From Polyangiales bacterium (GTDB lineage Bacteria; Myxococcota_A; Polyangia; Polyangiales; Polyangiaceae), in NCBI GenBank assembly GCA_038231275.1, contig JBBRLQ010000013.1, positions 1-64,000 of the forward strand: DNA of 64,000 nucleotides, in the 5' to 3' direction. Of the stretch, positions 16,060 to 25,607 are shown in pieces. Made by a program: the position numbers and the translations under genes. The notes beneath the pieces were generated by a model, which was not told where the DNA came from, did no database searches, and worked only from the letters and a program-made list of their open reading frames with translations. Within the stretch, counting starts at the first letter, position 1; each line of letters begins with the position of its first letter.

Positions 16060-16592
16060 TTTCCCGCTTCGCGCTCGACGTAGACGCGAATCTTCGTGAC
16101 GCCGCCGACGCGTGGCAACGGATCGCCCGGGCGCGCGAGGCGGCCACCTTGCCCATGGTACGCAGGGAACGGCTCCTCGGGCGCGAGCAAGCTCGCGAAC
16201 AGCTCACCGCGCCGATTCACGATCAACGCCGGCACCGGATCCTTGTCGCCCGATGGCCGCCGCAAGAGGATCGTAATGTCCTTCTCGCCGGTCGCCGCGA
16301 TCACCGCGCCCTCGCGCGACGCCGCCGCGCCGAGGAGCGTCGTCATCTTCCACGCCCGGTGCTCGTCGTCCTTGAAGTCCGGCGGCACGGTCGCGAGCTT
16401 CGCGGCATCGATCGCCGGCGCCGGCGTGCCGTCGATCTCCACCGAGACCGTGGCCGCGGCGGCGGGCGCAGCGGTGGCGGGCGGCGGCGGCTTCGGCATT
16501 CGCTTTCCGTCGCTCGACTCGCTCGCCTTCGAGCACGACGCGCACGCCAGCGCGAGCGCGACGGTCGCTGCTACGGCCAGGATGGTCCTCAT
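16056..16592 (-). CDS. Hypothetical lipoprotein, possible Moco-binding (sulfite-oxidase-like) fold
   Basis: Lipobox CASC; ATGA-coupled to modC; pattern VEIDG...AWKMTTLLG...RVGGVTKIRV. Confidence 0.6.
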   Translation of the reverse strand: MRTILAVAATVALALACASCSKASESSDGKRMPKPPPPATAAPAAAATVSVEIDGTPAPAIDAAKLATVPPDFKDDEHRAWKMTTLLGAAASREGAVIAATGEKDITILLRRPSGDKDPVPALIVNRRGELFASLLAPEEPFPAYHGQGGRLARPGDPLPRVGGVTKIRVYVEREAGK

Positions 16593-17332
16593 CGTCCCCA
16601 CCTCTCCCCTTCGCGCGTCTCCGCGCTCGGCACGACCTCGTCGCCGTCCTCGCCCAGCACGTCCTTCACGGGGCCCTCTTTCGTCACGCGCCCTCCGTCG
16701 ATCAGTACGGCGCGATCGCCGAGCGCGCGAGCCTCTCCGCGGTGATGCGTGACATGGAGCATGGGCACGCCGAGCTCCGCCACGAACGAGCGGAGATCCC
16801 GCACGAGATCGTTCCGCAGCTCGCGATCCATCGCGCTGAAGGGCTCGTCGAAGAGGACCACTTTGGGGTTCGTCGCGAAGGCCCGAGCGAGCGCGACGCG
16901 CTGCGCCTCCCCGCCCGAGAAGGTTGCGGGGCGACGGTGCTCGAGGTGACCCACGCGCAGCCGCTCGAGCATCTTCTTCGCGCGCGCGGCCCGCTCGTCT
17001 TTGCTCGCACCGCGGTCCATCCCATAGGCGACGTTCGCCGCCGCCGTCATGTGCGGGAAGAGCGCGAGAGACTGGAAGACGAATGCCACGCGGCGGAGGT
17101 GCACCGGGCGATCGAGCTTCTTCTCTGCGTCGAACCACACGTCGTCGCCGAGCGCGATCTTCCCCCGCGACGGGCGTACGAGGCCGGAGATCGCTGCGAG
17201 CGTCGTGCTCTTGCCGGCACCGCTCGGCCCGAAGAGGATCGTGATCCCCGGCGCCGCCTCGAACCGCACGTCGAGGTGGAAGCCGCCTTGCTGCTCCACT
17301 TCGATCTTCACGGTGAGCGCGTCAGTGGGCAT
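16589..17332 (-). CDS. modC: Molybdate ABC transporter ATP-binding subunit (short form, no TOBE domain)
   Basis: GPSGAGKST, FSGGEAQRVALARA, LFDEPFS and HVTH; follows modB. Confidence 0.88.
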   Translation of the reverse strand: MPTDALTVKIEVEQQGGFHLDVRFEAAPGITILFGPSGAGKSTTLAAISGLVRPSRGKIALGDDVWFDAEKKLDRPVHLRRVAFVFQSLALFPHMTAAANVAYGMDRGASKDERAARAKKMLERLRVGHLEHRRPATFSGGEAQRVALARAFATNPKVVLFDEPFSAMDRELRNDLVRDLRSFVAELGVPMLHVTHHRGEARALGDRAVLIDGGRVTKEGPVKDVLGEDGDEVVPSAETREGERWGR

Positions 17333-17984
17333 CGCGCCTCGCGGTAAGGCGATTTACCGTGTAGAGTACACCTATCGCGACGGCCGTGAGGACGAGCACC
17401 ATACCGAGCGCCTCGGTCTCGCGGTGCGCTTGGATCGCGTCGTAGATCGCGAGCGACGCGGTCTGCGTCTCCCCCGGGATGTCGCCTGCGACCATGAGCG
17501 TCACGCCGAAGTCGCCGAGCGAGCGCGCGAACGCGAGCATGAGCGCCGCGACGATCCCGCGCGCGGCAAGCGGCAAGCGGATCGTGAAGAACGCGCGCGT
17601 CGGGCTCGCGCCGAGCGTCCGCGCCGCGCGCACGAGCAGGACGTCGACCCCCTCCAGCGCCGCGCGTCCCGACTTCACCACGATGGGGAGGGCCCCGACC
17701 GTCGCCGCGCAGATCGCCCCCGTCTTGGTGAACACGATCGACGAGCCGGTCAGCTGCTCGAACGCGTGCCCGATCATGCTACGCCGCCCGATCGCGACGA
17801 GGAGGTAGTACCCGAGCACCGTCGGCGGCAGCACCGTGGGCGCGGTCACGAGTGCATCGAGCAGATCCCGCCCCGGCAGCCGCTCCCGCGTGAGCAACGC
17901 CGCCAGCGCGACGCCTAGCACCCCCGCCACGACGATCGCCGCGCACGCGATCTGCAGCGACAGTACGAGCGGCGCCAGGTCCAT
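17322..17984 (-). CDS. modB: Molybdate ABC transporter permease
   Basis: VLPPTVLGYYLL, AARTLGA and FARSLGDFGVTLMVAGDIPGETQT. Confidence 0.93.
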   Translation of the reverse strand: MDLAPLVLSLQIACAAIVVAGVLGVALAALLTRERLPGRDLLDALVTAPTVLPPTVLGYYLLVAIGRRSMIGHAFEQLTGSSIVFTKTGAICAATVGALPIVVKSGRAALEGVDVLLVRAARTLGASPTRAFFTIRLPLAARGIVAALMLAFARSLGDFGVTLMVAGDIPGETQTASLAIYDAIQAHRETEALGMVLVLTAVAIGVLYTVNRLTARRDAH

Positions 17985-18241: not shown

Positions 18242-19039
18242 CTATTTCGCGCTCGCCGCCGCCGGTTCGCCCGGGAGCAAGAACCCGTAGCGACGCATCA
18301 CCGCGCGCCCGTCCTCCGAGCCGACGAACGCGACGAAGCGACGTGCACCCTCGCTCACGGCGGCGCCTTTTCCTTTGCACGCGACCAGGGCCTGATCGAT
18401 CCGTTCGTGCGCCTCCGCGGGGATCGTGGAGTAGGCGCCGCCCTCGGTCACAGTGGCGAGCGACAACGCCACGATCGCCACCTCAACGTTCCCCGACTGC
18501 GCGAACTGCAGCGTCTGTTGGACGTTCTCGCCGTACACGACGCGCGGCTGCACCTTGTCCCATACGCCGGCCCGCGTCATCGCGTCCTTCGCGGCGCGTC
18601 CGTACGGCGCATGCTCCGGGTTGGCGATCGCGATCTTCGCCCACTTGGCGTCCGCGAGATCGGCCACCGTCTTCGGCGGATCGATGCCCTTCTTCGACCA
18701 AAGCACGATCCGACCGGTCGCATACAGCGCCTTGCTGTCGGCCGCGCACGCGCCGCTCTTCACCGCGTCGTCGGCGAAGCTGACGTTGGCGGCCGCGAAG
18801 ACTTCGAACGGCGCCCCCTCGGCGATCTGCTTCGCGAGGAGGCCCGTCGATCCGAACGAGAACGTCACGGGTTGCCCGGTCTTCTTCGTGTACGCGTCGC
18901 CGACGTCCTTGAACGCGAACGCCAGATCGGCCGCCGCGGCGACCTTCAGCGGCGCTCCGCCCGCCGGCGGATCCTTCTTGCACGCGAGGGACGGCGCGAC
19001 GCCGAGCGCGAGCACGAAGAGGACGCCGGCGGCTCTCAT
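18242..19039 (-). CDS. modA: Molybdate ABC transporter substrate-binding lipoprotein
   Basis: Lipobox SLAC, VAAAADL, FGSTGLLAKQIAEGAP, IAIANPEHAPYG and GENVQQ. Confidence 0.93.
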   Translation of the reverse strand: MRAAGVLFVLALGVAPSLACKKDPPAGGAPLKVAAAADLAFAFKDVGDAYTKKTGQPVTFSFGSTGLLAKQIAEGAPFEVFAAANVSFADDAVKSGACAADSKALYATGRIVLWSKKGIDPPKTVADLADAKWAKIAIANPEHAPYGRAAKDAMTRAGVWDKVQPRVVYGENVQQTLQFAQSGNVEVAIVALSLATVTEGGAYSTIPAEAHERIDQALVACKGKGAAVSEGARRFVAFVGSEDGRAVMRRYGFLLPGEPAAASAK

Positions 19040-19043
19040 CGCG

Positions 19044-19856
19044 TCAGGCCTTGGTGATGAGCGTGCCGACGTCCTCGCCGGCGAGCGCGCGGGTGAGCAT
19101 GCCACGCTCGAGTCCGTTGACGATCTGCAGCTCGTGGCACGATCGCGCGCGCACGAGGTACTCGATGACGACGCGCTCGAGGATCATGTCGGGCAAGTCG
19201 GCCTTCAGGAGGTCGCTCGCGGTGATGCGCGGGATGTGCTTGGCCTTGGGGTTCTTCTTCGGATCGTCCTCGAAGAGGCCGGCCTCGTCCTTGACGAAGA
19301 TGGCGCGCTTGCAGCCGAGCACCTCGGCGCTCAAGAAGACGCCGGCGTCGGTGCGGTGCTGCGGGATGCGCCCGTTCTCGGTCGGCTTCTCCCAGTACCC
19401 GAACGGCGGCATGCCCGTCATGATCGGGATGCAGCCGAGTCGGAAGTAGAGCGGCAGCTTCTCGAAGTCGTCGTGCATGATGTAGATCCCGCCGTGCTTG
19501 GCGAGGAGCATCTGCAGCATGCGGGCGTTCTGGCGCGGGACGTACCCGCCGAGCGCCGCGAGAATGCCGGTGGGCAGCTCGAGATCACTGGCCATCGCGT
19601 AGATGTGCCGCGCGCGTGTTCCGCCGCCGCAGCAGAGGAGCAGCTTGTACATGTCCTTCGCGGCCGCGACCTCCTCGAGGATCGGGAAGAGCGCAGCGCG
19701 TCCGCGATCCATCACCGACTGACCGCCGATCTTGACGACCTTCACGTCGGGCATCATCGCGACGGCGTCGTACGTAAAGCCACCCTTCTCGCCGTCTCCC
19801 ACGCCGGTGAGCGGCGAGTCGGCGAACTGGCTCTCGATGCGCTTCCTCTCAAGCAT
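19044..19856 (-). CDS. mosB: Molybdenum storage protein (MoSto) beta-like subunit, amino-acid-kinase fold
   Basis: PDVKVVKIGGQSVMDRGRAA, GGGTRARHIY, GMPP, IPQHRTDAG, IFVKDEAGL and QIVNGL...LTRALAGEDVGT match remembered MoSto motifs; directly upstream of modA. Confidence 0.8.
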   Translation of the reverse strand: MLERKRIESQFADSPLTGVGDGEKGGFTYDAVAMMPDVKVVKIGGQSVMDRGRAALFPILEEVAAAKDMYKLLLCCGGGTRARHIYAMASDLELPTGILAALGGYVPRQNARMLQMLLAKHGGIYIMHDDFEKLPLYFRLGCIPIMTGMPPFGYWEKPTENGRIPQHRTDAGVFLSAEVLGCKRAIFVKDEAGLFEDDPKKNPKAKHIPRITASDLLKADLPDMILERVVIEYLVRARSCHELQIVNGLERGMLTRALAGEDVGTLITKA

Positions 19857-20691
19857 GGGTCATCTCCTTCTCGATGACCGTGCCGACGTCTTCGCCGGCC
19901 AGCGCTCGAGTGAGCTCACCTTGCTTGAGGCCGTTGATGATCTGCACCTTCTTTACGTGCCGCGCGGTCTTCCACGCCGTGAAGAGGAGGCGATCCAAGA
20001 TGAGCTCTTCCGGCATGTCGGTGAGGAGCTTCGCGAGCGTCGTCTTCTTGATCTGCTTGGCGTCCGAGTGCTTCTTCGGGTCCTTGGTGAAGAGACCGTC
20101 CTCGTCCTTCACGAAGATGATCTTCTGCATGCCGAGCACCTCGGCGTGGATGAAGAGACCGAAGTCCGAGCCGTGCGTGGGCATCGGGCCCTCTTCGGGC
20201 GGCGGCTCCCAGAAGTGGTAGGGCGGGACCGAGATGACGATCGGCATCATCCCGTTCTCGAGGTAGAGCGGCAGCTCCCAGAAGTGCTCGCGCTGCATGA
20301 CGATCGAGCCATGCTTGGCGAGGAGCGCGTTCAGGAAGACGGCGTTCGCCTCCTCCATCGCGCCGACCAGCTGCGCGACGCCGCCGGTGGGCAGACCCAG
20401 ATCGAGCGCGATCGAAATCGTGTGGCGCACGCGCGTCCCGCCGCCGACGCCGATGACCATCTGGTGCTTGCCGCGCGCCGCCGAGAGCTCGTCGGCGATC
20501 GGGAGCAGCGCGCCCTTGCCGCGGTCGAAGATCGAGTGCCCTCCGAGGCTGACGAGCGTGACGTCGGGCAAGATCGAGAACTCACGCTCCGAGTTCGTCT
20601 TGGCGATGACACGACGGTCGACGAGCGACTCGCGCATGAGAGAAGAGGAGATGTGGGTCCGGCCGTCGCCGGTGACGAGCTTGCTGGTCAT
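19849..20691 (-). CDS. mosA: Molybdenum storage protein (MoSto) alpha-like subunit
   Basis: N-terminal HISSSLMRESLVDR, GGGTRVRH, PPYHFW, IFVKDEDGL and ARHVKKVQIINGL; tandem paralog of the next gene. Alpha/beta assignment is tentative. Confidence 0.72.
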   Translation of the reverse strand: MTSKLVTGDGRTHISSSLMRESLVDRRVIAKTNSEREFSILPDVTLVSLGGHSIFDRGKGALLPIADELSAARGKHQMVIGVGGGTRVRHTISIALDLGLPTGGVAQLVGAMEEANAVFLNALLAKHGSIVMQREHFWELPLYLENGMMPIVISVPPYHFWEPPPEEGPMPTHGSDFGLFIHAEVLGMQKIIFVKDEDGLFTKDPKKHSDAKQIKKTTLAKLLTDMPEELILDRLLFTAWKTARHVKKVQIINGLKQGELTRALAGEDVGTVIEKEMTHA

Positions 20692-20716: not shown

Positions 20717-21967
20717 TTACGAGTGTTCCTGCGCCGAGGCAGGATCGCCTGTTACAGTTTTGTTACTTTCGGGACGGCGAAACTCGGCGAGCGGCTTCAA
20801 GATCTGCCAGCTGACCGCGCCGGAGAGTACGCCGAAGAGCGTGTGGACCGTGAGCCCCGGGATCAGCATCGCCCACGCGACCGCCGGCGCCTGCACGCTG
20901 AGGGTCACGACGAAGATCGTCGCGAAGCGGCACGCGCCCATCAGGCCACCGACCCACGACCACGTGATCGGGCCGGGGAGCTTCCCGCCACGCGTGAGGA
21001 TCGGGACGAGCAGATCGCAGACGAGCCCGGGGGCGACGTGCTTGGCGATCTCGAAGATGCCGTAGCGCCCGTCGCCGAGGAGGAACGCGACCGTGCCCAT
21101 GACGAGGCCGGTCAGCGTCGCGCCGAAGCGCGATTTCGTCTTCACCGCAGCGACGATGTAGAGCGGCGTCAGGATGACGAGCTTGTGGCCCGGCGCGAAG
21201 GGGATGCTCGGGAGGATCTTGAGCGCTTTGATGCCGAGCATCGTGAGCGCCATGCCGGCGATGACCGCCACGTCGGCGGCCATGCGCTTTCCGCCCTCAC
21301 CCGCGGCGCCGAGATCGTGCCCCGCGAGGTGCTCCTCGGTCCGTGCGATCTGACGCTCCATCCGGCGGAGGATCGGCGCGACGTCACCGCGCCCGAGGCG
21401 TTTCACGGACGCCCAGAACCCTTCGTGCGGCTCTCCATCGGCATTGCGTCCGCCGCCGCCACCGCCGCCACCGCCGCCACCACCACCGCCGCCGCCTCCA
21501 CCGCCACCACGCCCTCGGCCGCTCGTCCCCATCAGCGCGAGGACGGCGTCGATCGACGCGGCGACGATCTTCGGAACGCCGAGCTTGCCCATCCCCGCGG
21601 CGATCGCGCGCTCGTCGCCGGCGCGCGCCACCTGCGACGCGAGGACGACGCAGAGGACGCGCAGGACCATCAGCCCGCCCAGGATCGCGCCGGCGACGTT
21701 GAGACTCACCGTCCATCCGCCGAGGTGCACCGGCACCCAGCGATCGATCGCCGGATCCTCGGACGTGAGCGCGTACGAGAGGCCGATGAACGCTGCGAAG
21801 CCCCAGAGCTTCGTCACCTGACGCACGAGCCGCCTCGGCGGCAGGCGCACGATCAGCCACAAAATAGCCTGGCTCGCCGCGAGCGCGCCGAGCTGCCACG
21901 GCTGCCGCAGGAAGAAGACCCCGATGGCCACCCCGACCAGGTAGAGAACGCGCAGGCGGGGGTCCAT
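20717..21967 (-). CDS. Membrane protein: EcfT/CbiQ-like N-terminal half, poly-Gly linker, ECF S-component-like C-terminal half
   Basis: Starts MDPRLR; LGGLMVLRVL...AIAAGMGKLGVP is an EcfT-like pattern; Gly20; then a multi-TM domain with PGH and FGATLTGLVMG...GLVCDLL, like S components. Confidence 0.65.
   Translation of the reverse strand: MDPRLRVLYLVGVAIGVFFLRQPWQLGALAASQAILWLIVRLPPRRLVRQVTKLWGFAAFIGLSYALTSEDPAIDRWVPVHLGGWTVSLNVAGAILGGLMVLRVLCVVLASQVARAGDERAIAAGMGKLGVPKIVAASIDAVLALMGTSGRGRGGGGGGGGGGGGGGGGGGGGRNADGEPHEGFWASVKRLGRGDVAPILRRMERQIARTEEHLAGHDLGAAGEGGKRMAADVAVIAGMALTMLGIKALKILPSIPFAPGHKLVILTPLYIVAAVKTKSRFGATLTGLVMGTVAFLLGDGRYGIFEIAKHVAPGLVCDLLVPILTRGGKLPGPITWSWVGGLMGACRFATIFVVTLSVQAPAVAWAMLIPGLTVHTLFGVLSGAVSWQILKPLAEFRRPESNKTVTGDPASAQEHS
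20750..20766 (-). promoter_or_regulatory. Pho-box-like direct repeat upstream of mosA
   Basis: Minus strand GTAACA-AAACT-GTAACA (11-bp period), inside the 3' end of the upstream gene. Confidence 0.6.
21449..21508 (-). repeat. Poly-glycine tract (20 GGN codons)
   Basis: Mixed GGC/GGT/GGA codons counted directly. Confidence 0.9.
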
Positions 21968-22002: not shown

Positions 22003-22500
22003 TTAGGGGGTCCCGGCTTCTTGCTCCGCCTTCGTCTTCAGCGGCGGGCACACGCTCCTCAGGATCTTCTGGTTCACGGGCGGGAGCGACCGGAGGTACT
22101 TCACGATGGAGTACGTCTCGAAGTCGTTCATCGTCGAGAAGTGCTTCATCTGCGGGCAGAGCTCGAGCCCGCCGAGATCGACTCCCGTACGGATCGCGAG
22201 CGCAAGCTGGTCGTCGGTCCACGCGGCGACGCCGTAGGTGGGATCAGGCGTGAGGTTCGGCGGGTAGAGCTCCACGGTCGGATCCTGCGGGTAAGCGATC
22301 GCCGCCACGGCGCCCGCCATGTTCTGCCCGTGGCACTTCACGCAGTCGCGCGTGACGACGGACGCCTTGCCCTGCTCGAGCGTCGCCTGGTCCTTGCCGG
22401 TGGGCGTTCCTCCGTCCCCGCTGTCGCCGCTCTTGCTGCTGCTGCACGCCGCGAGGACGCCTACCGCACCCGTCGCGAAAAGCCAAAGCCACCGTCGCAT
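22003..22500 (-). CDS. Monoheme cytochrome c lipoprotein
   Basis: Lipobox LAAC, CVKCH, YPPNLTPD, WTDDQLALAIRTG, PQM and YLRSLPPV. Confidence 0.85.
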   Translation of the reverse strand: MRRWLWLFATGAVGVLAACSSSKSGDSGDGGTPTGKDQATLEQGKASVVTRDCVKCHGQNMAGAVAAIAYPQDPTVELYPPNLTPDPTYGVAAWTDDQLALAIRTGVDLGGLELCPQMKHFSTMNDFETYSIVKYLRSLPPVNQKILRSVCPPLKTKAEQEAGTP

Positions 22501-22544
22501 ACGCTCACTCCTCTTGGATCGGATCGTCCTCACGAAAATGAGAA

Positions 22545-22575
22545 CGGCCCCGCTCTCTCGTGGAGAGCAGGGCCG
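22545..22575 (-). terminator. Intrinsic terminator candidate after 22609-23595
   Basis: Hairpin CGGCCC-CGCTCTC / GAGAGC-AGGGCCG, followed on the minus strand by TTCTCATTTT. Confidence 0.65.
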
Positions 22576-22608
22576 AGCTCTATGCCTTGTAGCCGTGACT
22601 CGTTCTAA

Positions 22609-23595
22609 TCACTGACCGCATGTCTTGGCATTGTACTTCGTGATGATGTCCTGCGCGAACGCGTCGATCGCAGTCGCCATCGTCGGAGTGATGGTGAACA
22701 TCGGGTGCGAGTAGGGCGCACCCGTCGAGGTCGCGGTGGACTTGTCCTTCAGCGCAGCCGACGCGACGAGCGAGGTGCCGTTCGTGCCGATGTACTTGCT
22801 GATGATGTTGATGCCCTCGGGCGAGAGCGCGTTGTCCTGGAGCGCCTTCAGCGTCGGCGTGCCGATCGCGCTGAAATTCGCGTGCATCGCGTACTCGCCC
22901 TGCGTGTGGCAGGTCTGGCACGGAGCCTGGTTGCAGCCGGTGCAGGTGTTGGCGTTCTCGTTGGTGCGCCGGATCGTGCGCAGCTTGTCGAGGCCGATCG
23001 CCTGGAACTTCGTGGTGTCGATGCAGGTGCCGAGCTTGGCCAGGATGCTCGTCGGCGTGTTCACGCCGCGAACCTGGGCCTCCATCGCCAGCCACGTGTT
23101 CATGTCGCCGGTCTCCTGCGCGGTGAGCGCGGGGCCCGTGTGCTGTCCCTTTCGGAGGAGCATCGACGTCGTCATGATGTAGCCGCGCGCCTCGACGGAC
23201 GCGTAGGCGGTGACGGCGTCGGCGTTCCAGAAGGTCGGCGCGCCGGACGCGCCGGGCGGCGCGTGGCAGCTGGCGCACGTCGTGGTCAGCTCGGGGAACA
23301 CGGTCTTGACGAAGTATTCCTTCGCGGTCGGCGACGTCACGCCGGGCGGGGGAACATCGGGCGGAGTGACGACGCCGCCGGAGCTCGTCGTCCCGGGGAT
23401 GGTGCCGCCGCTGGAGGTGCCACCGCTGGTGCTGCCGCCGCTCGTGGAGCCGCCGCTGCTGGTGCCACCGGAGCTGCTGCCGCCGCCGCCGGGATCATTC
23501 TGGCCGAGCGTATTCGGGTCGGTGCTTCCGCACGCCAGCGCAGTTGCACCGGCGAGCGCCGCGACCAGTGCGAAGGCGTACGGCTTCATGTTCAC
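22609..23595 (-). CDS. Di-heme c-type cytochrome lipoprotein with Gly/Ser linker
   Basis: Lipobox ALAC, (TSSGG)n linker, CASCH and CTGCNQAPCQTCH. Confidence 0.75.
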   Translation of the reverse strand: MNMKPYAFALVAALAGATALACGSTDPNTLGQNDPGGGGSSSGGTSSGGSTSGGSTSGGTSSGGTIPGTTSSGGVVTPPDVPPPGVTSPTAKEYFVKTVFPELTTTCASCHAPPGASGAPTFWNADAVTAYASVEARGYIMTTSMLLRKGQHTGPALTAQETGDMNTWLAMEAQVRGVNTPTSILAKLGTCIDTTKFQAIGLDKLRTIRRTNENANTCTGCNQAPCQTCHTQGEYAMHANFSAIGTPTLKALQDNALSPEGINIISKYIGTNGTSLVASAALKDKSTATSTGAPYSHPMFTITPTMATAIDAFAQDIITKYNAKTCGQ

Positions 23596-25553
23596 TTCTC
23601 CCCTTGCTTGCGGCGGAGGGCCAGGAGCATTCCGAGTCCGACGAGGAAGAGGCCGCCTGCGCCGCCGGTGCTGGTTCCGGTCGTGGAGACCGCGCAGCCC
23701 GAGTTCGCGCCGTCGAGGCCGTTGTGGAACGCGCCGCTGTTCGGATCCGGGCTGTCACCGCCGGGGATGACGCTGGGCGGGGGCTCGGCGTTCGGGCTGG
23801 GGTTGGTGCCGGGGACGTTCACGCGCGGGAGCGGGCCGGTGACGCTGGGCTGTCCGTCGGGGCCGACGCCGGGCGTTCCGGTCGGGCCGCCGGGGATGGT
23901 CGGCGTGCTGGGGATCCACGACGCGGGGACGAGCGAGAGGTAGATGCTCTCGCGCGCGGCGAGCTTCGCGGTGTCGGCGCTGGTGTAGCCCTGGACCGCC
24001 GACCCGATGAGCGTCTTCACTTCCGGCATGAACGCCGTGGCGCCCTTGTTGTAGCCCGGGTTCTGGATGCCGCCCTGGGCGTAGATGAAGCCGCGGCCCT
24101 GGTTGTTCGGGTTGCGCTTGCCGCGGACGACGGTGCCGGCGATGTCACTGTAGGTTGACGTGGCGTAGAGCTTGAGCGGGTCCTTTGTGCCGATGACGTT
24201 GTTCACGCTGTCGAGCGGCAGAATCTGGACGAAGCCCTTGCCCGTACCGGTCGACGAGGCGCCCATCGAGACGACGACCGGCATCTCGCTGCCTTCCGGG
24301 CCCCACGTCGCGCCGATGGCGCCGGCGTGACGCGCGTACGGCGCCACGTTCGACATCATCGGGCCAACAGGCGCGAGGGTCGTCTTGTCGAACATCGCGA
24401 GGTTCGACTCGTTGATGCCGCCGGTGTGGCCGTTGTTGCCGTTGCCGGGGCCGCCGCGGACCGCCGCGCTCGTCTGGTAGCTGACGGCGATGTACTTTCC
24501 GAGGTCGGCGATGTTCGGCTGCACCGCGTACTTGTTGTTCTTCGGGTCGCTCTTGGCGATGAGCGCGGTCTTGATGACCTTGCCGGTCGTGACATCGAAG
24601 GAGAGGAGGCGGACACCGACATTGGCCGGCTGCGTGTTCGCCTCGACGCTGGTGAGGTACGCCGTCTTGCCGTCGGCCGAGTTGGTGACGACGTCGGGGC
24701 GACAGTGCTGCGCGTTCTGGATGACGCGGTTCAGGTATTTGACGTCGAGCTTGACGCCGCCGCCCGCCGCGTCCTCGATCACGTCGGTGCGGAGGACGTA
24801 CGCGTTGTTGTTGTTGCGCTGCACGCCCATGACGAACGCATTGTCGGTGCCCTGAACGCGGGCGATCGAGTGCGCGCCGTACTGTTGGTTGTCGTTGTTG
24901 CCCGAGAGCTCGATGAGGTTGGTCGGCTTGAGGAGGCTGTTGCTCCGGTTCGTGTTGGTGACCTTGACCGGCTTCATCGTCGCCTTGTCGTAGACGAACG
25001 CGACGATCTGCGGGTTGTTGTTCTGGCCGTTGTCCTCGCTCGCGCCGACGAGCAAGTAGTACTTGTTCGTCGCCATGATGTTCGGCTTGGCGAACGTGCG
25101 GTCGCCCTCGAGCTCGGGGAGCTCGACGTACTGCATCGCGTCGACCTGCGGGCCCTGCGTCGTGAGGTGCGTGACCGCGAACGCCGCCTGCATGTAGCTG
25201 TTGTTGCTGTTCGGGTTGACCGTGTTGGCCGTCCGCGTCGCGATGAAGAGGAGGGGGACGTCCGTGGCAAAGCTGGTCGCCGCCGTCGGGCTGTCGTCGA
25301 CCTTCAGCTGGGGATCCATGAAGCCGACGCCGGTGCAGCGGCCGACGCGCGGGACCTTGTTGCCGGCCGCGTCGGTCTTGGTCGGGCCGAGGAGGTCACC
25401 GATCATCTTCGGCAGGATCTGGTGGTACGTGTTGAGCACCACCGTGCCGCCCGTCTGCCCGCCGGCCTGGGGAACGTCCGCCTTCGCGCTCGCCGTTGCA
25501 CCAACGATCGCGAGAGTCGAGAGAGCCACTGTGCAGATACGGGACGTCTTCAT
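23592..25553 (-). CDS. Secreted surface protein with MYXO-CTERM-like C-terminal sorting signal
   Basis: Signal peptide, Asn-rich beta-type body, Pro/Gly linker and SGCAV...GGLFLVGLGMLLALRRK tail. Confidence 0.75.
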   Translation of the reverse strand: MKTSRICTVALSTLAIVGATASAKADVPQAGGQTGGTVVLNTYHQILPKMIGDLLGPTKTDAAGNKVPRVGRCTGVGFMDPQLKVDDSPTAATSFATDVPLLFIATRTANTVNPNSNNSYMQAAFAVTHLTTQGPQVDAMQYVELPELEGDRTFAKPNIMATNKYYLLVGASEDNGQNNNPQIVAFVYDKATMKPVKVTNTNRSNSLLKPTNLIELSGNNDNQQYGAHSIARVQGTDNAFVMGVQRNNNNAYVLRTDVIEDAAGGGVKLDVKYLNRVIQNAQHCRPDVVTNSADGKTAYLTSVEANTQPANVGVRLLSFDVTTGKVIKTALIAKSDPKNNKYAVQPNIADLGKYIAVSYQTSAAVRGGPGNGNNGHTGGINESNLAMFDKTTLAPVGPMMSNVAPYARHAGAIGATWGPEGSEMPVVVSMGASSTGTGKGFVQILPLDSVNNVIGTKDPLKLYATSTYSDIAGTVVRGKRNPNNQGRGFIYAQGGIQNPGYNKGATAFMPEVKTLIGSAVQGYTSADTAKLAARESIYLSLVPASWIPSTPTIPGGPTGTPGVGPDGQPSVTGPLPRVNVPGTNPSPNAEPPPSVIPGGDSPDPNSGAFHNGLDGANSGCAVSTTGTSTGGAGGLFLVGLGMLLALRRKQGEK

Positions 25554-25607
25554 TTTGAATGCCTCCGAGCGAACGGTTCGGTGCGAGCAGCCTCGCAAGC
25601 CACCTAG

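What the first reader, a model, noticed from the sequence alone, without database searches (positions are those of the whole stretch)
20717..21967. EcfT-like domain fused to an S-component-like domain, with poly-Gly replacing the coupling helices and no EcfA ATPase nearby
Seen: the N-half has the DPR start and TM pattern of EcfT/CbiQ. Where EcfT carries Arg-motif coupling helices, the protein reads GRGR-Gly20-RNADG, then an amphipathic helix (ILRRMERQIARTEEHL), then a multi-TM S-like domain with PGH. The Gly20 uses mixed codons, so it is not a pure slippage tract. The only nearby ABC ATPase is ModC. Known: ECF transporters need T, S and A components. Inference: this is an ATP-independent T-S facilitator, a transporter borrowing another ATPase, or a sensor.
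Basis: partly seen in the sequence, partly recalled or inferred. Interest (0 to 1): 0.75.

Follow-up and report, generated by a model that had tools for sequence, protein, structure and literature searches.

The report
ECF-like membrane protein partnered with molybdenum storage
This gene encodes a membrane protein that joins the two membrane parts of a vitamin-type (ECF) transporter in one chain, and across many bacteria it sits beside, or is fused to, molybdenum storage and molybdate uptake proteins, so it is probably an undescribed route for handling molybdate.

Summary
Window 20717-21967 (-) encodes a 416-aa protein with an EcfT-like N-half, a 20-glycine run in mixed codons, two short cytoplasmic helices, and a six-helix C-half whose predicted fold matches only ECF S components.

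The next two genes are molybdenum storage protein (MoSto) homologues, followed by modABC.

- In 73 of 75 related loci with enough downstream DNA, the gene is followed directly by a MoSto gene.
- In Eremiobacterota the membrane protein is fused in frame to that MoSto subunit.
- In a sister clade, which includes an Acidobacteriia MAG, it is fused behind a full ModC ATPase.
- The Gly/Arg-rich linker is present in all 33 relatives aligned. The pure Gly20 is its extreme form.

Best reading: a T-S-fused, ECF-type membrane module dedicated to molybdate. It is physically coupled to MoSto and probably driven by a ModC-type ATPase. Substrate and energy source are inferred, not shown.

No EcfA gene lies in the window or next to any of the 80 relatives. 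I found no paper linking MoSto to ECF proteins. I rate it a new variant of a known kind, interest about 0.7.

The parts
20717..21967 (-). Whole ORF, 416 aa: T-S-fused ECF-like membrane protein (called 'TS' in this report)
   Evidence: ORF. 314+ full-length homologues. AlphaFold2 model with mean pLDDT 85.2 and pTM 0.83.
21524..21967 (-). EcfT-like membrane domain, residues 1-148. By sequence it corresponds to EcfT residues about 19-160 and stops before the part of EcfT that carries the Ala-Arg-Gly motifs.
   Evidence: Pfam CbiQ 23.6 bits, profile 9-139 of 216. NCBIfam ECF_T_CbiQ E 2.5e-9. Profile against the PDB hits only EcfT, E 0.019. Foldseek 7nnt_D (chain of the folate ECF transporter complex): prob 0.96, TM 0.40.
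21428..21523 (-). Gly/Arg-rich low-complexity cytoplasmic linker, residues 149-180. It contains Gly20 (residues 154-173, nt 21449-21508).
   Evidence: 20 Gly in codons GGC 11, GGT 7, GGA 2. pLDDT below 50 for residues 151-174. Present in all 33 aligned homologues. In 113 homologues the linker median is 42 aa, 44% G, 14% R, and the longest Gly run has a median of 8 and a next-highest value of 11.
21299..21427 (-). Two short cytoplasmic helices, residues 184-192 and 197-214. The first ends in the conserved (A/G/L)-R-G-D, a candidate remnant of an EcfT coupling helix.
   Evidence: Helices. G194 and D195 are invariant in A1. G194 is nearly invariant across both clades. The likeness to the EcfT Ala-Arg-Gly motif is read by eye and was not tested by a profile.
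20777..21298 (-). S-component-like six-helix domain, residues 224-397. Conserved polar residues: K262, D299, R301, E306, K309, H310, D318, R347.
   Evidence: Foldseek on the domain model: every hit with prob >= 0.84 and TM >= 0.45 is an ECF S component (5edl, 4tkr_A, 4rfs_S, 6zg3_C, 4huq_S, 3rlb_A, 4muu_A, 5kc0), with a best E of 0.053. Pfam Trep_Strep in 13 of 37 members, best E 5e-5, and ABC_cobalt in 3 of 37. Invariant residues; R301 is R or K by eye.
19849..20691 (-). First molybdenum storage protein homologue (MosX1), 280 aa, starting 25 nt after TS
   Evidence: PDB phmmer: MoSto beta E 1.7e-63, MoSto alpha E 1.4e-43. Pfam AA_kinase.
19044..19856 (-). Second molybdenum storage protein homologue (MosX2), 270 aa, overlapping MosX1 by 8 nt
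   Evidence: PDB phmmer: MoSto beta E 7.5e-69, MoSto alpha E 7e-42.
18242..19105 (-). ModA, the molybdate-binding protein
   Evidence: NCBIfam modA 188.7 bits, cutoff 62.5.
17322..17984 (-). ModB permease
   Evidence: NCBIfam modB_ABC 211.1 bits, cutoff 182.6.
16589..17332 (-). ModC ATPase, short form of 247 aa without the C-terminal TOBE domain
   Evidence: NCBIfam modC_ABC 220.9 bits, matching profile positions 7-222 of 353. It is the only ABC ATPase in the window.
22003..22533 (-). Small c-type cytochrome, 35 nt upstream of TS. It is probably the first gene of the same transcription unit.
   Evidence: Pfam Cytochrom_C. A terminator-like hairpin lies just upstream at 22575-22545. It is found upstream of TS in 15 of 55 loci with at least 4 kb of upstream DNA.

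Best explanation
The gene encodes a single-chain ECF-type membrane module dedicated to molybdate (possibly also tungstate) handling.

Shown:
- The N-half is the membrane domain of an EcfT/CbiQ scaffold.
- The C-half has the six-helix fold of an ECF substrate-binding S component.
- The two are joined by a cytoplasmic Gly/Arg-rich linker and two short helices.
- The gene belongs to a conserved cassette with two molybdenum storage protein genes.
- In other lineages the same protein is fused in frame to the first MoSto subunit or to a full ModC ATPase.

Inferred:
- The S-like domain binds the oxyanion on the periplasmic side. The candidate pocket is lined by the family-invariant K262, D299, E306, K309, H310 and D318, plus R301 (R or K in the sequences read) and the nearly invariant R347.
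- It carries the oxyanion inward while leaning on its own tethered T-like domain.
- The cytoplasmic face docks the MoSto cage, so that incoming molybdate is handed straight to ATP-driven storage.
- Energy comes from a ModC-type nucleotide-binding domain. It would engage the single surviving Arg-Gly helix (residues 184-195), one ATPase per chain, so the working unit would be a dimer.
- The Gly/Arg-rich segments are flexible, positively charged cytoplasmic arms. Their exact role is open.
For: Domains:
- EcfT-like N-half.
- S-component fold of the C-half.
- Confident single-unit model: pLDDT 85, pTM 0.83.

Context in the window: TS, MosX1, MosX2, modA, modB and modC lie on one strand with gaps of 25 nt or less, or overlaps, between TS, MosX1 and MosX2.

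Conservation in related loci:
- 73 of 75 loci with at least 900 nt downstream have MosX1 right after TS. One of these, L043, has only a 5' remnant.
- 67 of 70 have both Mos genes.
- 26 of 61 with at least 4.5 kb downstream also have modA, modB and modC.

Fusions:
- L033 (661 aa) and L021 (669 aa) are TS-MosX1 in one frame.
- Six protein clusters of 658-730 aa cover at least 98% of the fused query.
- P0181 (732 aa) is a divergent TS-Mos fusion.
- 15 of 78 hits are ModC-TS. P0320 passes the curated modC_ABC cutoff (317.9 against 285), and its TS part aligns at 34% identity over the full length of the window protein.
- P0371 is TS followed by a signal-anchor-like stretch and ModA.

Topology: a cytoplasmic ModC at the N-terminus and a cytoplasmic Mos at the C-terminus place both ends and the linker in the cytoplasm. 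That puts the PFAPGHK and GDGRYG loops outside, where S components bind substrate (inference).

Conserved residues.

From papers:
- EcfT TMH4 contacts S components through a conserved Arg (PMC4820897, passages). R103 aligns with that region in this clade.
- Solitary S components such as BioY and BtuM can transport without an ECF module (PMC11109136, passages).
Against: - No substrate was tested. 'Molybdate' rests on gene association only.
- Sequence and fold scores are weak. Pfam CbiQ is below its gathering score for this protein. No Foldseek hit reaches E <= 1e-3. The C-domain profile finds nothing in the PDB by sequence.
- modABC is already a complete molybdate importer, so a second uptake route looks redundant. 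ModC here could simply serve ModB.
- I could not see whether the ModC-TS fusion genomes still have modB.
- Canonical MoSto in Azospirillum plasmids has no TS or mod neighbour, and TS has no match in the plasmid collection. So MoSto does not need TS.
- Two loci (L056, L066) have TS without Mos or Mod nearby.
- R103 is Q in the ModC-fused clade.
- The 'single coupling helix' idea is by eye.
- The S fold is also used by non-transporters such as MreD and sensor kinases (PMC12625996 and PMC11109136, passages).
- Helix 1 has a conserved A234-x-x-x-G238 rather than a clear AxxxA.
Confidence: 0.45

Rival explanations
1. ATP-independent facilitator with MoSto as the sink. The T-S protein lets molybdate cross the membrane without its own ATPase. 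Net uptake is pulled by MoSto, which consumes ATP to lock molybdate into polyoxomolybdate clusters just below the membrane.
For: No EcfA is nearby. The EcfT region that carries the two Ala-Arg-Gly motifs is missing by sequence. The association and fusion with MoSto is the strongest and most direct signal in this clade. Solitary S components can transport without an ECF module (PMC11109136, passages). That MoSto loading needs ATP is stated in PMC6448029 (passages).
Against: It does not explain the recurrent ModC-TS fusions or why a T-like domain is kept. Loci and clades without adjacent Mos genes exist.
Confidence: 0.2
2. Membrane anchor or docking scaffold only. The protein tethers the MoSto cage, and in other clades ModC, to the membrane next to ModABC, and its S-like pocket is repurposed for a protein or regulatory contact. 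It does not translocate anything itself.
For: The fusions show tethering directly. The S fold is used for non-transport roles in MreD and sensor kinases (PMC12625996 and PMC11109136, passages). modABC is already a full importer. A clear AxxxA is missing in helix 1 (read).
Against: A ten-helix protein with about 20 invariant polar and Gly/Pro positions inside the S-like bundle is more than an anchor needs. The conserved charged residues sit where S components bind ligands.
Confidence: 0.17
3. Sensor or regulator. The S-like domain senses periplasmic molybdate or tungstate. Through the linker helices it gates MoSto loading or release, or ModC activity, in analogy to receptors built on the S-component fold.
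For: There is precedent for the S fold in receptors (PMC11109136, passages). The protein is fused to ModC, which in canonical form carries a regulatory TOBE domain, while the window's ModC lacks TOBE. Other fusions with a methyltransferase domain exist (P0346, P0354).
Against: There is no recognisable signalling output domain in the 416-aa form. The T-like scaffold domain has no known sensing role.
Confidence: 0.1
4. An ordinary cobalt/nickel or vitamin ECF T component (CbiQ/EcfT), as some databases name its relatives. It would work with EcfA and an S component encoded elsewhere.
For: Source names such as 'energy-coupling factor transporter transmembrane component T' and 'cobalt transport protein' are given to some homologues. 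There is a weak CbiQ match.
Against: The match covers only profile positions 9-139/145 of 216. The protein has its own S-like domain. No cbi, nik or ecfA genes are adjacent in 80 loci. All conserved partners are Mo-related.
Confidence: 0.03

Closest known systems
ECF transporter T component (EcfT/CbiQ, Pfam PF02361)
   Same: The N-terminal membrane domain is alignable to EcfT residues about 19-160, including the DPR start and the TMH4 region that touches S components. The full model also matches a chain of an ECF transporter complex by fold (7nnt_D).
   Different: The match stops at profile position about 140 of 216. The coupling domain with its two Ala-Arg-Gly motifs and the last TM helix are not detectable. 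A Gly/Arg-rich linker, two short helices and a covalently attached S-like domain take their place. No EcfA/EcfA' genes are nearby.
ECF transporter S components (YkoE 5edl, ThiT 3rlb/4tkr, PanT 4rfs_S, RibU 5kc0; Pfam Trep_Strep and ABC_cobalt)
   Same: Six-helix bundle with TM-scores of 0.5-0.63 normalised to the S components. No other fold class scores above about 0.25. There are weak sequence hits to two S-component Pfam families.
   Different: It is not a member of any named S family; the window protein scores 11 bits against a cutoff of 28.7. It is permanently fused to a T-like domain. The inferred substrate is an inorganic oxyanion rather than a vitamin or a Co/Ni cation. Helix 1 shows AxxxG rather than a clear AxxxA.
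Molybdenum storage protein MoSto (MosA/MosB of Azotobacter vinelandii; PDB 2ogx, 6gu5)
   Same: The two downstream genes are clear homologues, E 1e-63 to 1e-69.
   Different: Both window subunits score higher against the beta chain than the alpha chain. They come with a dedicated membrane partner, sometimes fused to it. The Azospirillum mosB-mosA pairs seen here stand alone.
ModABC molybdate ABC importer
   Same: It is encoded in the same cluster. ModC is fused to relatives of this protein in a sister clade.
   Different: ModB is a type I permease that is unrelated in fold. The protein studied here would be an ECF-type membrane partner for the same kind of ATPase.
Solitary S components (BioY, BtuM) and S-fold receptors (MreD, 5TMR sensor kinases)
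   Same: They use the S fold without a canonical EcfAA'T module (PMC11109136 and PMC12625996, passages).
   Different: None of those is joined to a T-like domain or linked to Mo genes. The term 'molybd' does not occur in PMC11109136.

Membership tests
EcfT/CbiQ T component (PF02361, TIGR02454) | Sequence match to the family model above the curated cutoff | tested here: not met
   Pfam scores 23.6 bits against a gathering score of 25. NCBIfam scores 37.3 against 111.8. Some relatives pass Pfam: P0181 39.9 bits and P0126 32 bits, and 38 of the 120 listed carry a precomputed PF02361. The match always covers only the first two thirds or so of the model.
EcfT/CbiQ T component | Homologous N-terminal transmembrane domain (TMH1-4) | tested here: met
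   The profile of 37 N-domains hits only EcfT chains in the PDB: E 0.019, query 1-145 against EcfT 19-160. Foldseek 7nnt_D gives prob 0.96.
EcfT/CbiQ T component | Coupling domain with two coupling helices ending in conserved Ala-Arg-Gly motifs (named as typifying in PMC11109136; arginines at the helix ends in PMC4820897) | tested here: not met
   No model or profile match goes beyond position about 145 of 216. Residues 149-180 are a disordered Gly/Arg linker. One (A/G/L)-R-G-D at 192-195 is conserved. Its equivalence to an EcfT motif is only read by eye.
EcfT/CbiQ T component | Works with EcfA/EcfA' ATPases | not testable with these tools
   No EcfA is in the 64-kb window or beside the gene in 80 loci. 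The rest of the source genome is not available.
ECF S component | Six-transmembrane-helix S-component fold | tested here: met
   The domain model has pLDDT 87. All Foldseek hits with prob >= 0.84 are S components, with TM 0.48-0.63 normalised to the target. Everything else is about 0.2. The E-values themselves are not significant; the best is 0.053.
ECF S component | Membership of a named S-component sequence family | tested here: not met
   The window protein scores 11.1 bits on Trep_Strep against a cutoff of 28.7. 13 of 37 relatives hit Trep_Strep (best E 5e-5) and 3 of 37 hit ABC_cobalt. That these two Pfam families are S components is recalled, not from a call.
ECF S component | AxxxA motif in helix 1 for docking on EcfT (PMC11109136, passages) | tested here: inconclusive
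   Helix 1 reads D232-V-A234-V-I-A237-G238. A234 and G238 (small-xxx-small) are conserved across both clades by eye, but it is not a strict AxxxA.
ECF S component | Binds and translocates a specific substrate | not testable with these tools
   Only conserved polar residues in the expected pocket region can be listed.
Molybdenum storage protein (the neighbouring genes) | Homology to MosA/MosB of solved MoSto | tested here: met
   E 1.7e-63 and 7.5e-69 to MoSto beta, and about 1e-42 to alpha.
ModC (the fusion partner in the sister clade) | NCBIfam modC_ABC equivalog cutoff | tested here: met
   P0320 scores 317.9 and P0333 scores 288.0 against a cutoff of 285.05. P0391 scores 270.5, below it.

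The most novel reading that the evidence does not exclude
MoSto itself is the motor and the destination. The T-S protein and the (alpha-beta)3 MoSto cage form one membrane-bound machine: three membrane modules per cage, as the Eremiobacterota fusions would give. In it an amino-acid-kinase-fold ATPase, not an ABC ATPase, takes the place of EcfAA'. Molybdate would pass from the periplasm through the S-like domain directly into ATP-driven polyoxomolybdate synthesis, with the Gly/Arg arms guiding the anion. This would be a new way of energising an ECF-type transporter and a direct uptake-to-mineral-store pipeline.
Probability: 0.15. Interest if true: 0.9.

Novelty: new variant of a known kind. Interest (0 to 1): 0.72.

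Why it matters
ECF transporters are known for vitamins and for Co/Ni. They are always described as S + T + two EcfA ATPases. This family has four unusual features:

- T and S are one chain.
- The canonical coupling domain is gone.
- No EcfA is nearby.
- The conserved partners are a metal-oxide storage cage and a type I importer ATPase.

If it moves molybdate, it adds a third kind of molybdate uptake component. It would also be a case of an ECF membrane module re-wired to a different motor. It would show how MoSto is fed in soil bacteria such as Polyangia, Eremiobacterota, the Acidobacteriia MAG represented here and some Proteobacteria.

Two further points matter in practice:

- Many database entries now call these proteins 'EcfT', 'cobalt transport protein' or, for the fusions, just 'ModC' or 'molybdenum storage protein'. 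These names look incomplete.
- The natural fusions are ready-made constructs for structural work.

Tried and rejected
Calls that gave nothing usable:
- Single-sequence search of the PDB returned only artificial Gly-Ser linkers matching the Gly tract.
- The full-length profile was also dominated by Gly/Arg-rich tails such as SmD1. EcfT appeared at E 0.016.
- The C-domain profile against the PDB found nothing meaningful.
- The protein Atlas gave only unnamed clusters at score 0.91 and one cluster with 20% ABC_cobalt. That is a lead only.
- Foldseek with the whole model gave noisy E-values, so I refolded the C-domain alone.
- tblastn of TS against plasmids found no match.
- The loci without Mos (L056, and L066 by tblastn) were inspected. 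L056 neighbours gave no informative Pfam hits apart from a PQQ propeller protein.
- The 5 ORFs upstream or on the other strand that overlap the gene are typical high-GC shadow ORFs and were not pursued.

Apparent fusions rejected:
- P0169 (639 aa) has a C-terminal extension that looks like out-of-frame read-through with no domain.
- P0122 comes from a contig of the same length as that of L043. It reads through into only about 45 residues of Mos and then unrelated sequence.

Ideas rejected:
- The Gly tract as an assembly or slippage artefact. The frame is kept, the codons are mixed, and every relative has a Gly/Arg-rich linker there.

- A profile-profile test of the post-linker helices against EcfT coupling helices. 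No EcfT alignment could be built from the sequences held.
The gene neighbourhoods of the ModC-TS fusions and of the 470-500 aa subfamily therefore stayed unchecked.
Full report
THE OBSERVATION

The ORF at 20717-21967 on the minus strand encodes 416 aa beginning MDPRLRVLYL. Residues 154-173 are twenty consecutive glycines, flanked by GRGR and RNADG. The codons are GGC 11, GGT 7 and GGA 2. The rest of the gene uses GGT only 3 times in 46 Gly codons. The window is about 70% G+C throughout.

THE TWO HALVES

N-half. It matches Pfam CbiQ at 23.6 bits, with a gathering score of 25 (residues 2-136 against profile positions 9-139 of 216). It matches NCBIfam ECF_T_CbiQ at E 2.5e-9, far below that model's cutoff. 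A profile built from 37 N-domains (A3) finds only two distinct sequences in the whole PDB. Both are EcfT (4hzu_T, 4huq_T; E 0.019), aligned from the shared DPR start through EcfT residue 160.

C-half. It has no Pfam or NCBIfam family, and its profile finds nothing in the PDB by sequence. Scanned one by one, 13 of 37 relatives touch Pfam Trep_Strep (best E 5e-5) and 3 of 37 touch ABC_cobalt. From memory, both are S-component families.

Structure. AlphaFold2 on 33 sequences gives a confident model with pLDDT 85.2 and pTM 0.83. It is disordered only at residues 151-174, at 252-257 and at the C-terminal tail (400-408, 411-416). Helices lie at 3-19, 23-39, 44-66, 91-114, 121-128 and 133-148. After the Gly tract come helices 184-192 and 197-214. 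Six long helices then span 224-397.
- Foldseek with the whole model is noisy. Its only high-probability hits are 7nnt_D, a chain of the folate ECF transporter complex, and two S components.
- The C-domain folded alone has pLDDT 87. It matches YkoE (5edl), ThiT, PanT, RibU and the 4huq S chain, with probability 0.84-1.00 and TM 0.48-0.63.
- Every other hit sits near TM 0.2. No E-value is significant; the best is 0.053.

So the T-plus-S reading is supported at profile and fold level, with weak statistics.

THE LINKER

All 33 aligned homologues have a Gly/Arg-rich stretch at this position. Over the 113 of 121 sequences where both anchor motifs could be located:
- The linker has a median of 42 residues, 44% Gly and 14% Arg.
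- The longest Gly run has a median of 8 and otherwise never exceeds 11.
- The window's run of 20 is therefore the extreme of a family trait.

After the tract, the family consensus FWAxxKRLARGDV ends the first short helix. G194 and D195 are invariant, and G194 is nearly invariant across clades. This looks like one surviving EcfT-type Arg-Gly motif, but I could not test that with a profile. In the divergent clades a second Gly/Arg-rich segment appears at the C-terminus, or between the S-like domain and a fused Mos domain. That argues it is more than passive spacer. Its role is unexplained.

The two genes immediately downstream on the same strand are 19849-20691 and 19044-19856. The first begins 25 nt after TS, and the two overlap by 8 nt. 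Both are clear homologues of the Azotobacter molybdenum storage protein. They score E 1.7e-63 and 7.5e-69 to the beta chain and about 1e-42 to the alpha chain. modA, modB and a short modC follow. A small cytochrome c gene lies 35 nt upstream, and a strong terminator-like hairpin lies just beyond it.

HOW GENERAL THE CONTEXT IS

The protein has 314+ homologues of similar length, mostly from Polyangia MAGs. An exhaustive profile search with the C-domain finds only 266 cluster representatives among 1.84 billion. Most of the best 150 listed carry the domain at about residues 180-400 of a 350-470 aa protein, and many of the shorter ones look like fragments. This suggests the S-like domain normally comes with the T-like domain.

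One scan of species-representative genomes gave 137 relatives, of which 80 loci were kept. tblastn with the window's neighbours shows the following:
- MosX1 lies directly after TS in 73 of 75 loci that have at least 900 nt downstream. One of these, L043, holds only a 5' remnant.
- Both Mos genes are present in 67 of 70 loci.
- Of 61 loci with at least 4.5 kb downstream, 36 have modA, 31 modB, 27 modC, and 26 have all three.
- L056 and L066 have no Mos or Mod nearby.
- Only 3 of 80 loci show any other ABC ATPase segment within 8 kb (L039, L041, L043).

The cassette also occurs outside Myxococcota: in Eremiobacterota (L021, L027, L033), Usitatibacter (L036, L039) and a Gemmatimonadales MAG (L065).

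FUSIONS

TS-Mos.
- In L033 (661 aa) and L021 (669 aa) the membrane protein and MosX1 are one open frame.
- Searching with the fused protein finds six more clusters of 658-730 aa that cover at least 98% of it.
- P0181 (732 aa) is a divergent TS-Mos fusion with a long Gly-rich joint.

ModC-TS.
- Searching with the TS part of P0177 finds 78 proteins of 470 aa or more. 15 of them carry an ABC ATPase domain in front of TS, and the full-length ones are 855-899 aa.
- P0320, from an Acidobacteriia MAG, passes the curated modC_ABC cutoff and has a TOBE domain.
- Its TS part aligns with the window protein over the whole length at 34% identity.

Others.
- P0371 is TS followed by a signal-anchor-like stretch and ModA.
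- P0346 and P0354 are TS followed by a methyltransferase domain.

These fusions fix the topology. Both termini and the linker are cytoplasmic. The loops PFAPGHK and GDGRYG therefore face outward, where S components bind ligands.

MECHANISM

Shown: an EcfT-like membrane domain and an S-fold domain sit in one chain. The gene is linked to MoSto genes and, in other lineages, covalently linked to MoSto or ModC.

Inferred, step by step:
(i) The substrate is molybdate or tungstate, because every conserved partner handles it.
(ii) The binding site is the outward pocket of the S-like bundle. The invariant K262, D299, E306, K309, H310 and D318 lie there, with R301 (R or K in the sequences read) and the nearly invariant R347.
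(iii) The tethered T-like domain supports the S-like domain as EcfT does. In EcfT, TMH4 carries an Arg and a Ser/Thr stretch that contact the S component (PMC4820897, passages). The aligned region here holds the clade-invariant R103, although it is Gln in the ModC-fused clade.
(iv) A ModC-type ATPase supplies energy through the one remaining Arg-Gly helix. That implies one ATPase per chain and a dimeric unit.
(v) MoSto docks underneath and receives the anion.

Steps (iv) and (v) rest on the fusions. The binding prediction that would have tested them was not available.

RIVALS
- A facilitator pulled by MoSto as an ATP-driven sink.
- A pure membrane anchor. The S fold is known in non-transporters such as MreD and sensor kinases (PMC12625996 and PMC11109136, passages).
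- A sensor.
- An ordinary CbiQ.

EVIDENCE AGAINST THE MAIN READING
- The sequence and fold statistics are weak.
- A second importer looks redundant with ModABC.
- MoSto exists without TS. In the Azospirillum brasilense plasmid inspected, mosB and mosA stand alone. Ten Azospirillum plasmids hold Mos homologues, and TS has no match in the plasmid collection.
- There are two TS loci without Mos.

COMPARISON WITH WHAT IS KNOWN

The protein fails the EcfT membership test on the defining coupling domain, and it fails membership of any named S family. It is an ECF-like architecture, not a member of either family.

Literature searches (listings only unless stated):
- No relevant paper holds both MoSto and ECF/EcfT/CbiQ terms. 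The one listed paper with a count under both, PMC7876471 on M. avium diagnostic sequences, looks unrelated.
- None holds 'molybdenum storage protein', 'ModABC' and 'comparative genomic' together.
- The six papers with 'ECF transporter', 'molybdate' and 'S-component' are five reviews or papers on ABC/ECF transporters in general and one trace-element study in Geotalea daltonii.
- The survey of the S-component fold (PMC11109136) does not contain 'molybd'.
- The A. vinelandii MoSto genetics paper (PMC6448029, passages) mentions no membrane partner.
- The search library omits most subscription-journal papers, so a description elsewhere cannot be excluded.
- From memory, not from a call: Brünle et al. 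(2019) described the MoSto beta subunit as the ATP-using site that pumps molybdate into the cage. The paper was not in the library.

VERDICT

The domain interpretation is right but incomplete. The feature is a conserved, so far unnamed, Mo-linked T-S fusion family. I rate it a new variant of a known kind, interest about 0.7.

Noticed in passing
window 19044-20691 (-): Both MoSto homologues score higher against the A. vinelandii beta chain than the alpha chain (216 vs 152 bits, and 235 vs 146 bits). This pair may have arisen by a duplication separate from the canonical alpha/beta split. MosX1 has a highly conserved N-terminal arm (D9, G10, R11, H13 ... invariant).
   Followed up: partly
window 16589-17332 (-): The window's ModC is only 247 aa and matches positions 7-222 of the 353-position modC model. 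It therefore lacks the C-terminal TOBE regulatory domain that the ModC-TS fusions keep.
   Followed up: partly
window 22003-25598 (-): Three same-strand upstream genes recur upstream of TS in Polyangia loci. They are a 668-aa secreted-looking protein with no Pfam family and a hydrophobic, basic C-terminal tail; a 328-aa protein with a Gly/Ser-rich N-region and a CxxCH motif; and a 176-aa cytochrome c. Of 55 loci with at least 4 kb upstream, they are present in 37, 30 and 15. A terminator-like hairpin at 22575-22545 separates the first two from the cytochrome c gene.
   Followed up: partly
L021:4217-7867 (+): In the Vulcanimicrobiaceae locus, a 1216-aa protein that looks like a respiratory nitrate reductase alpha subunit (NarG-like N-terminus, read by eye) ends about 115 nt before the TS-Mos fusion gene. 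That places a molybdoenzyme next to the cassette.
   Followed up: no
P0346, P0354 (proteins): Relatives of the TS protein are fused at the C-terminus to a SAM-dependent methyltransferase domain (717 and 754 aa). This does not fit a simple Mo-transport story.
   Followed up: no
P0320, P0322, P0333, P0384, P0350: In the ModC-fused and the 470-500 aa clades, a second Gly/Arg-rich segment (GGGRGxGGG-like) sits at the extreme C-terminus. In P0181 one lies between the S-like domain and Mos. The motif moves around but is kept.
   Followed up: partly
L030:9227-11347; L077:8441-9380; L058: In a few loci TS and MosX1 are separated by 0.36-2.1 kb instead of the usual gap of under 150 nt. The inserted DNA was not examined.
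   Followed up: no
L027:9105-10772: The second Eremiobacterota locus shows the Mos genes broken into several frames. This suggests frameshift errors in that long-read assembly, or pseudogenes.
   Followed up: no
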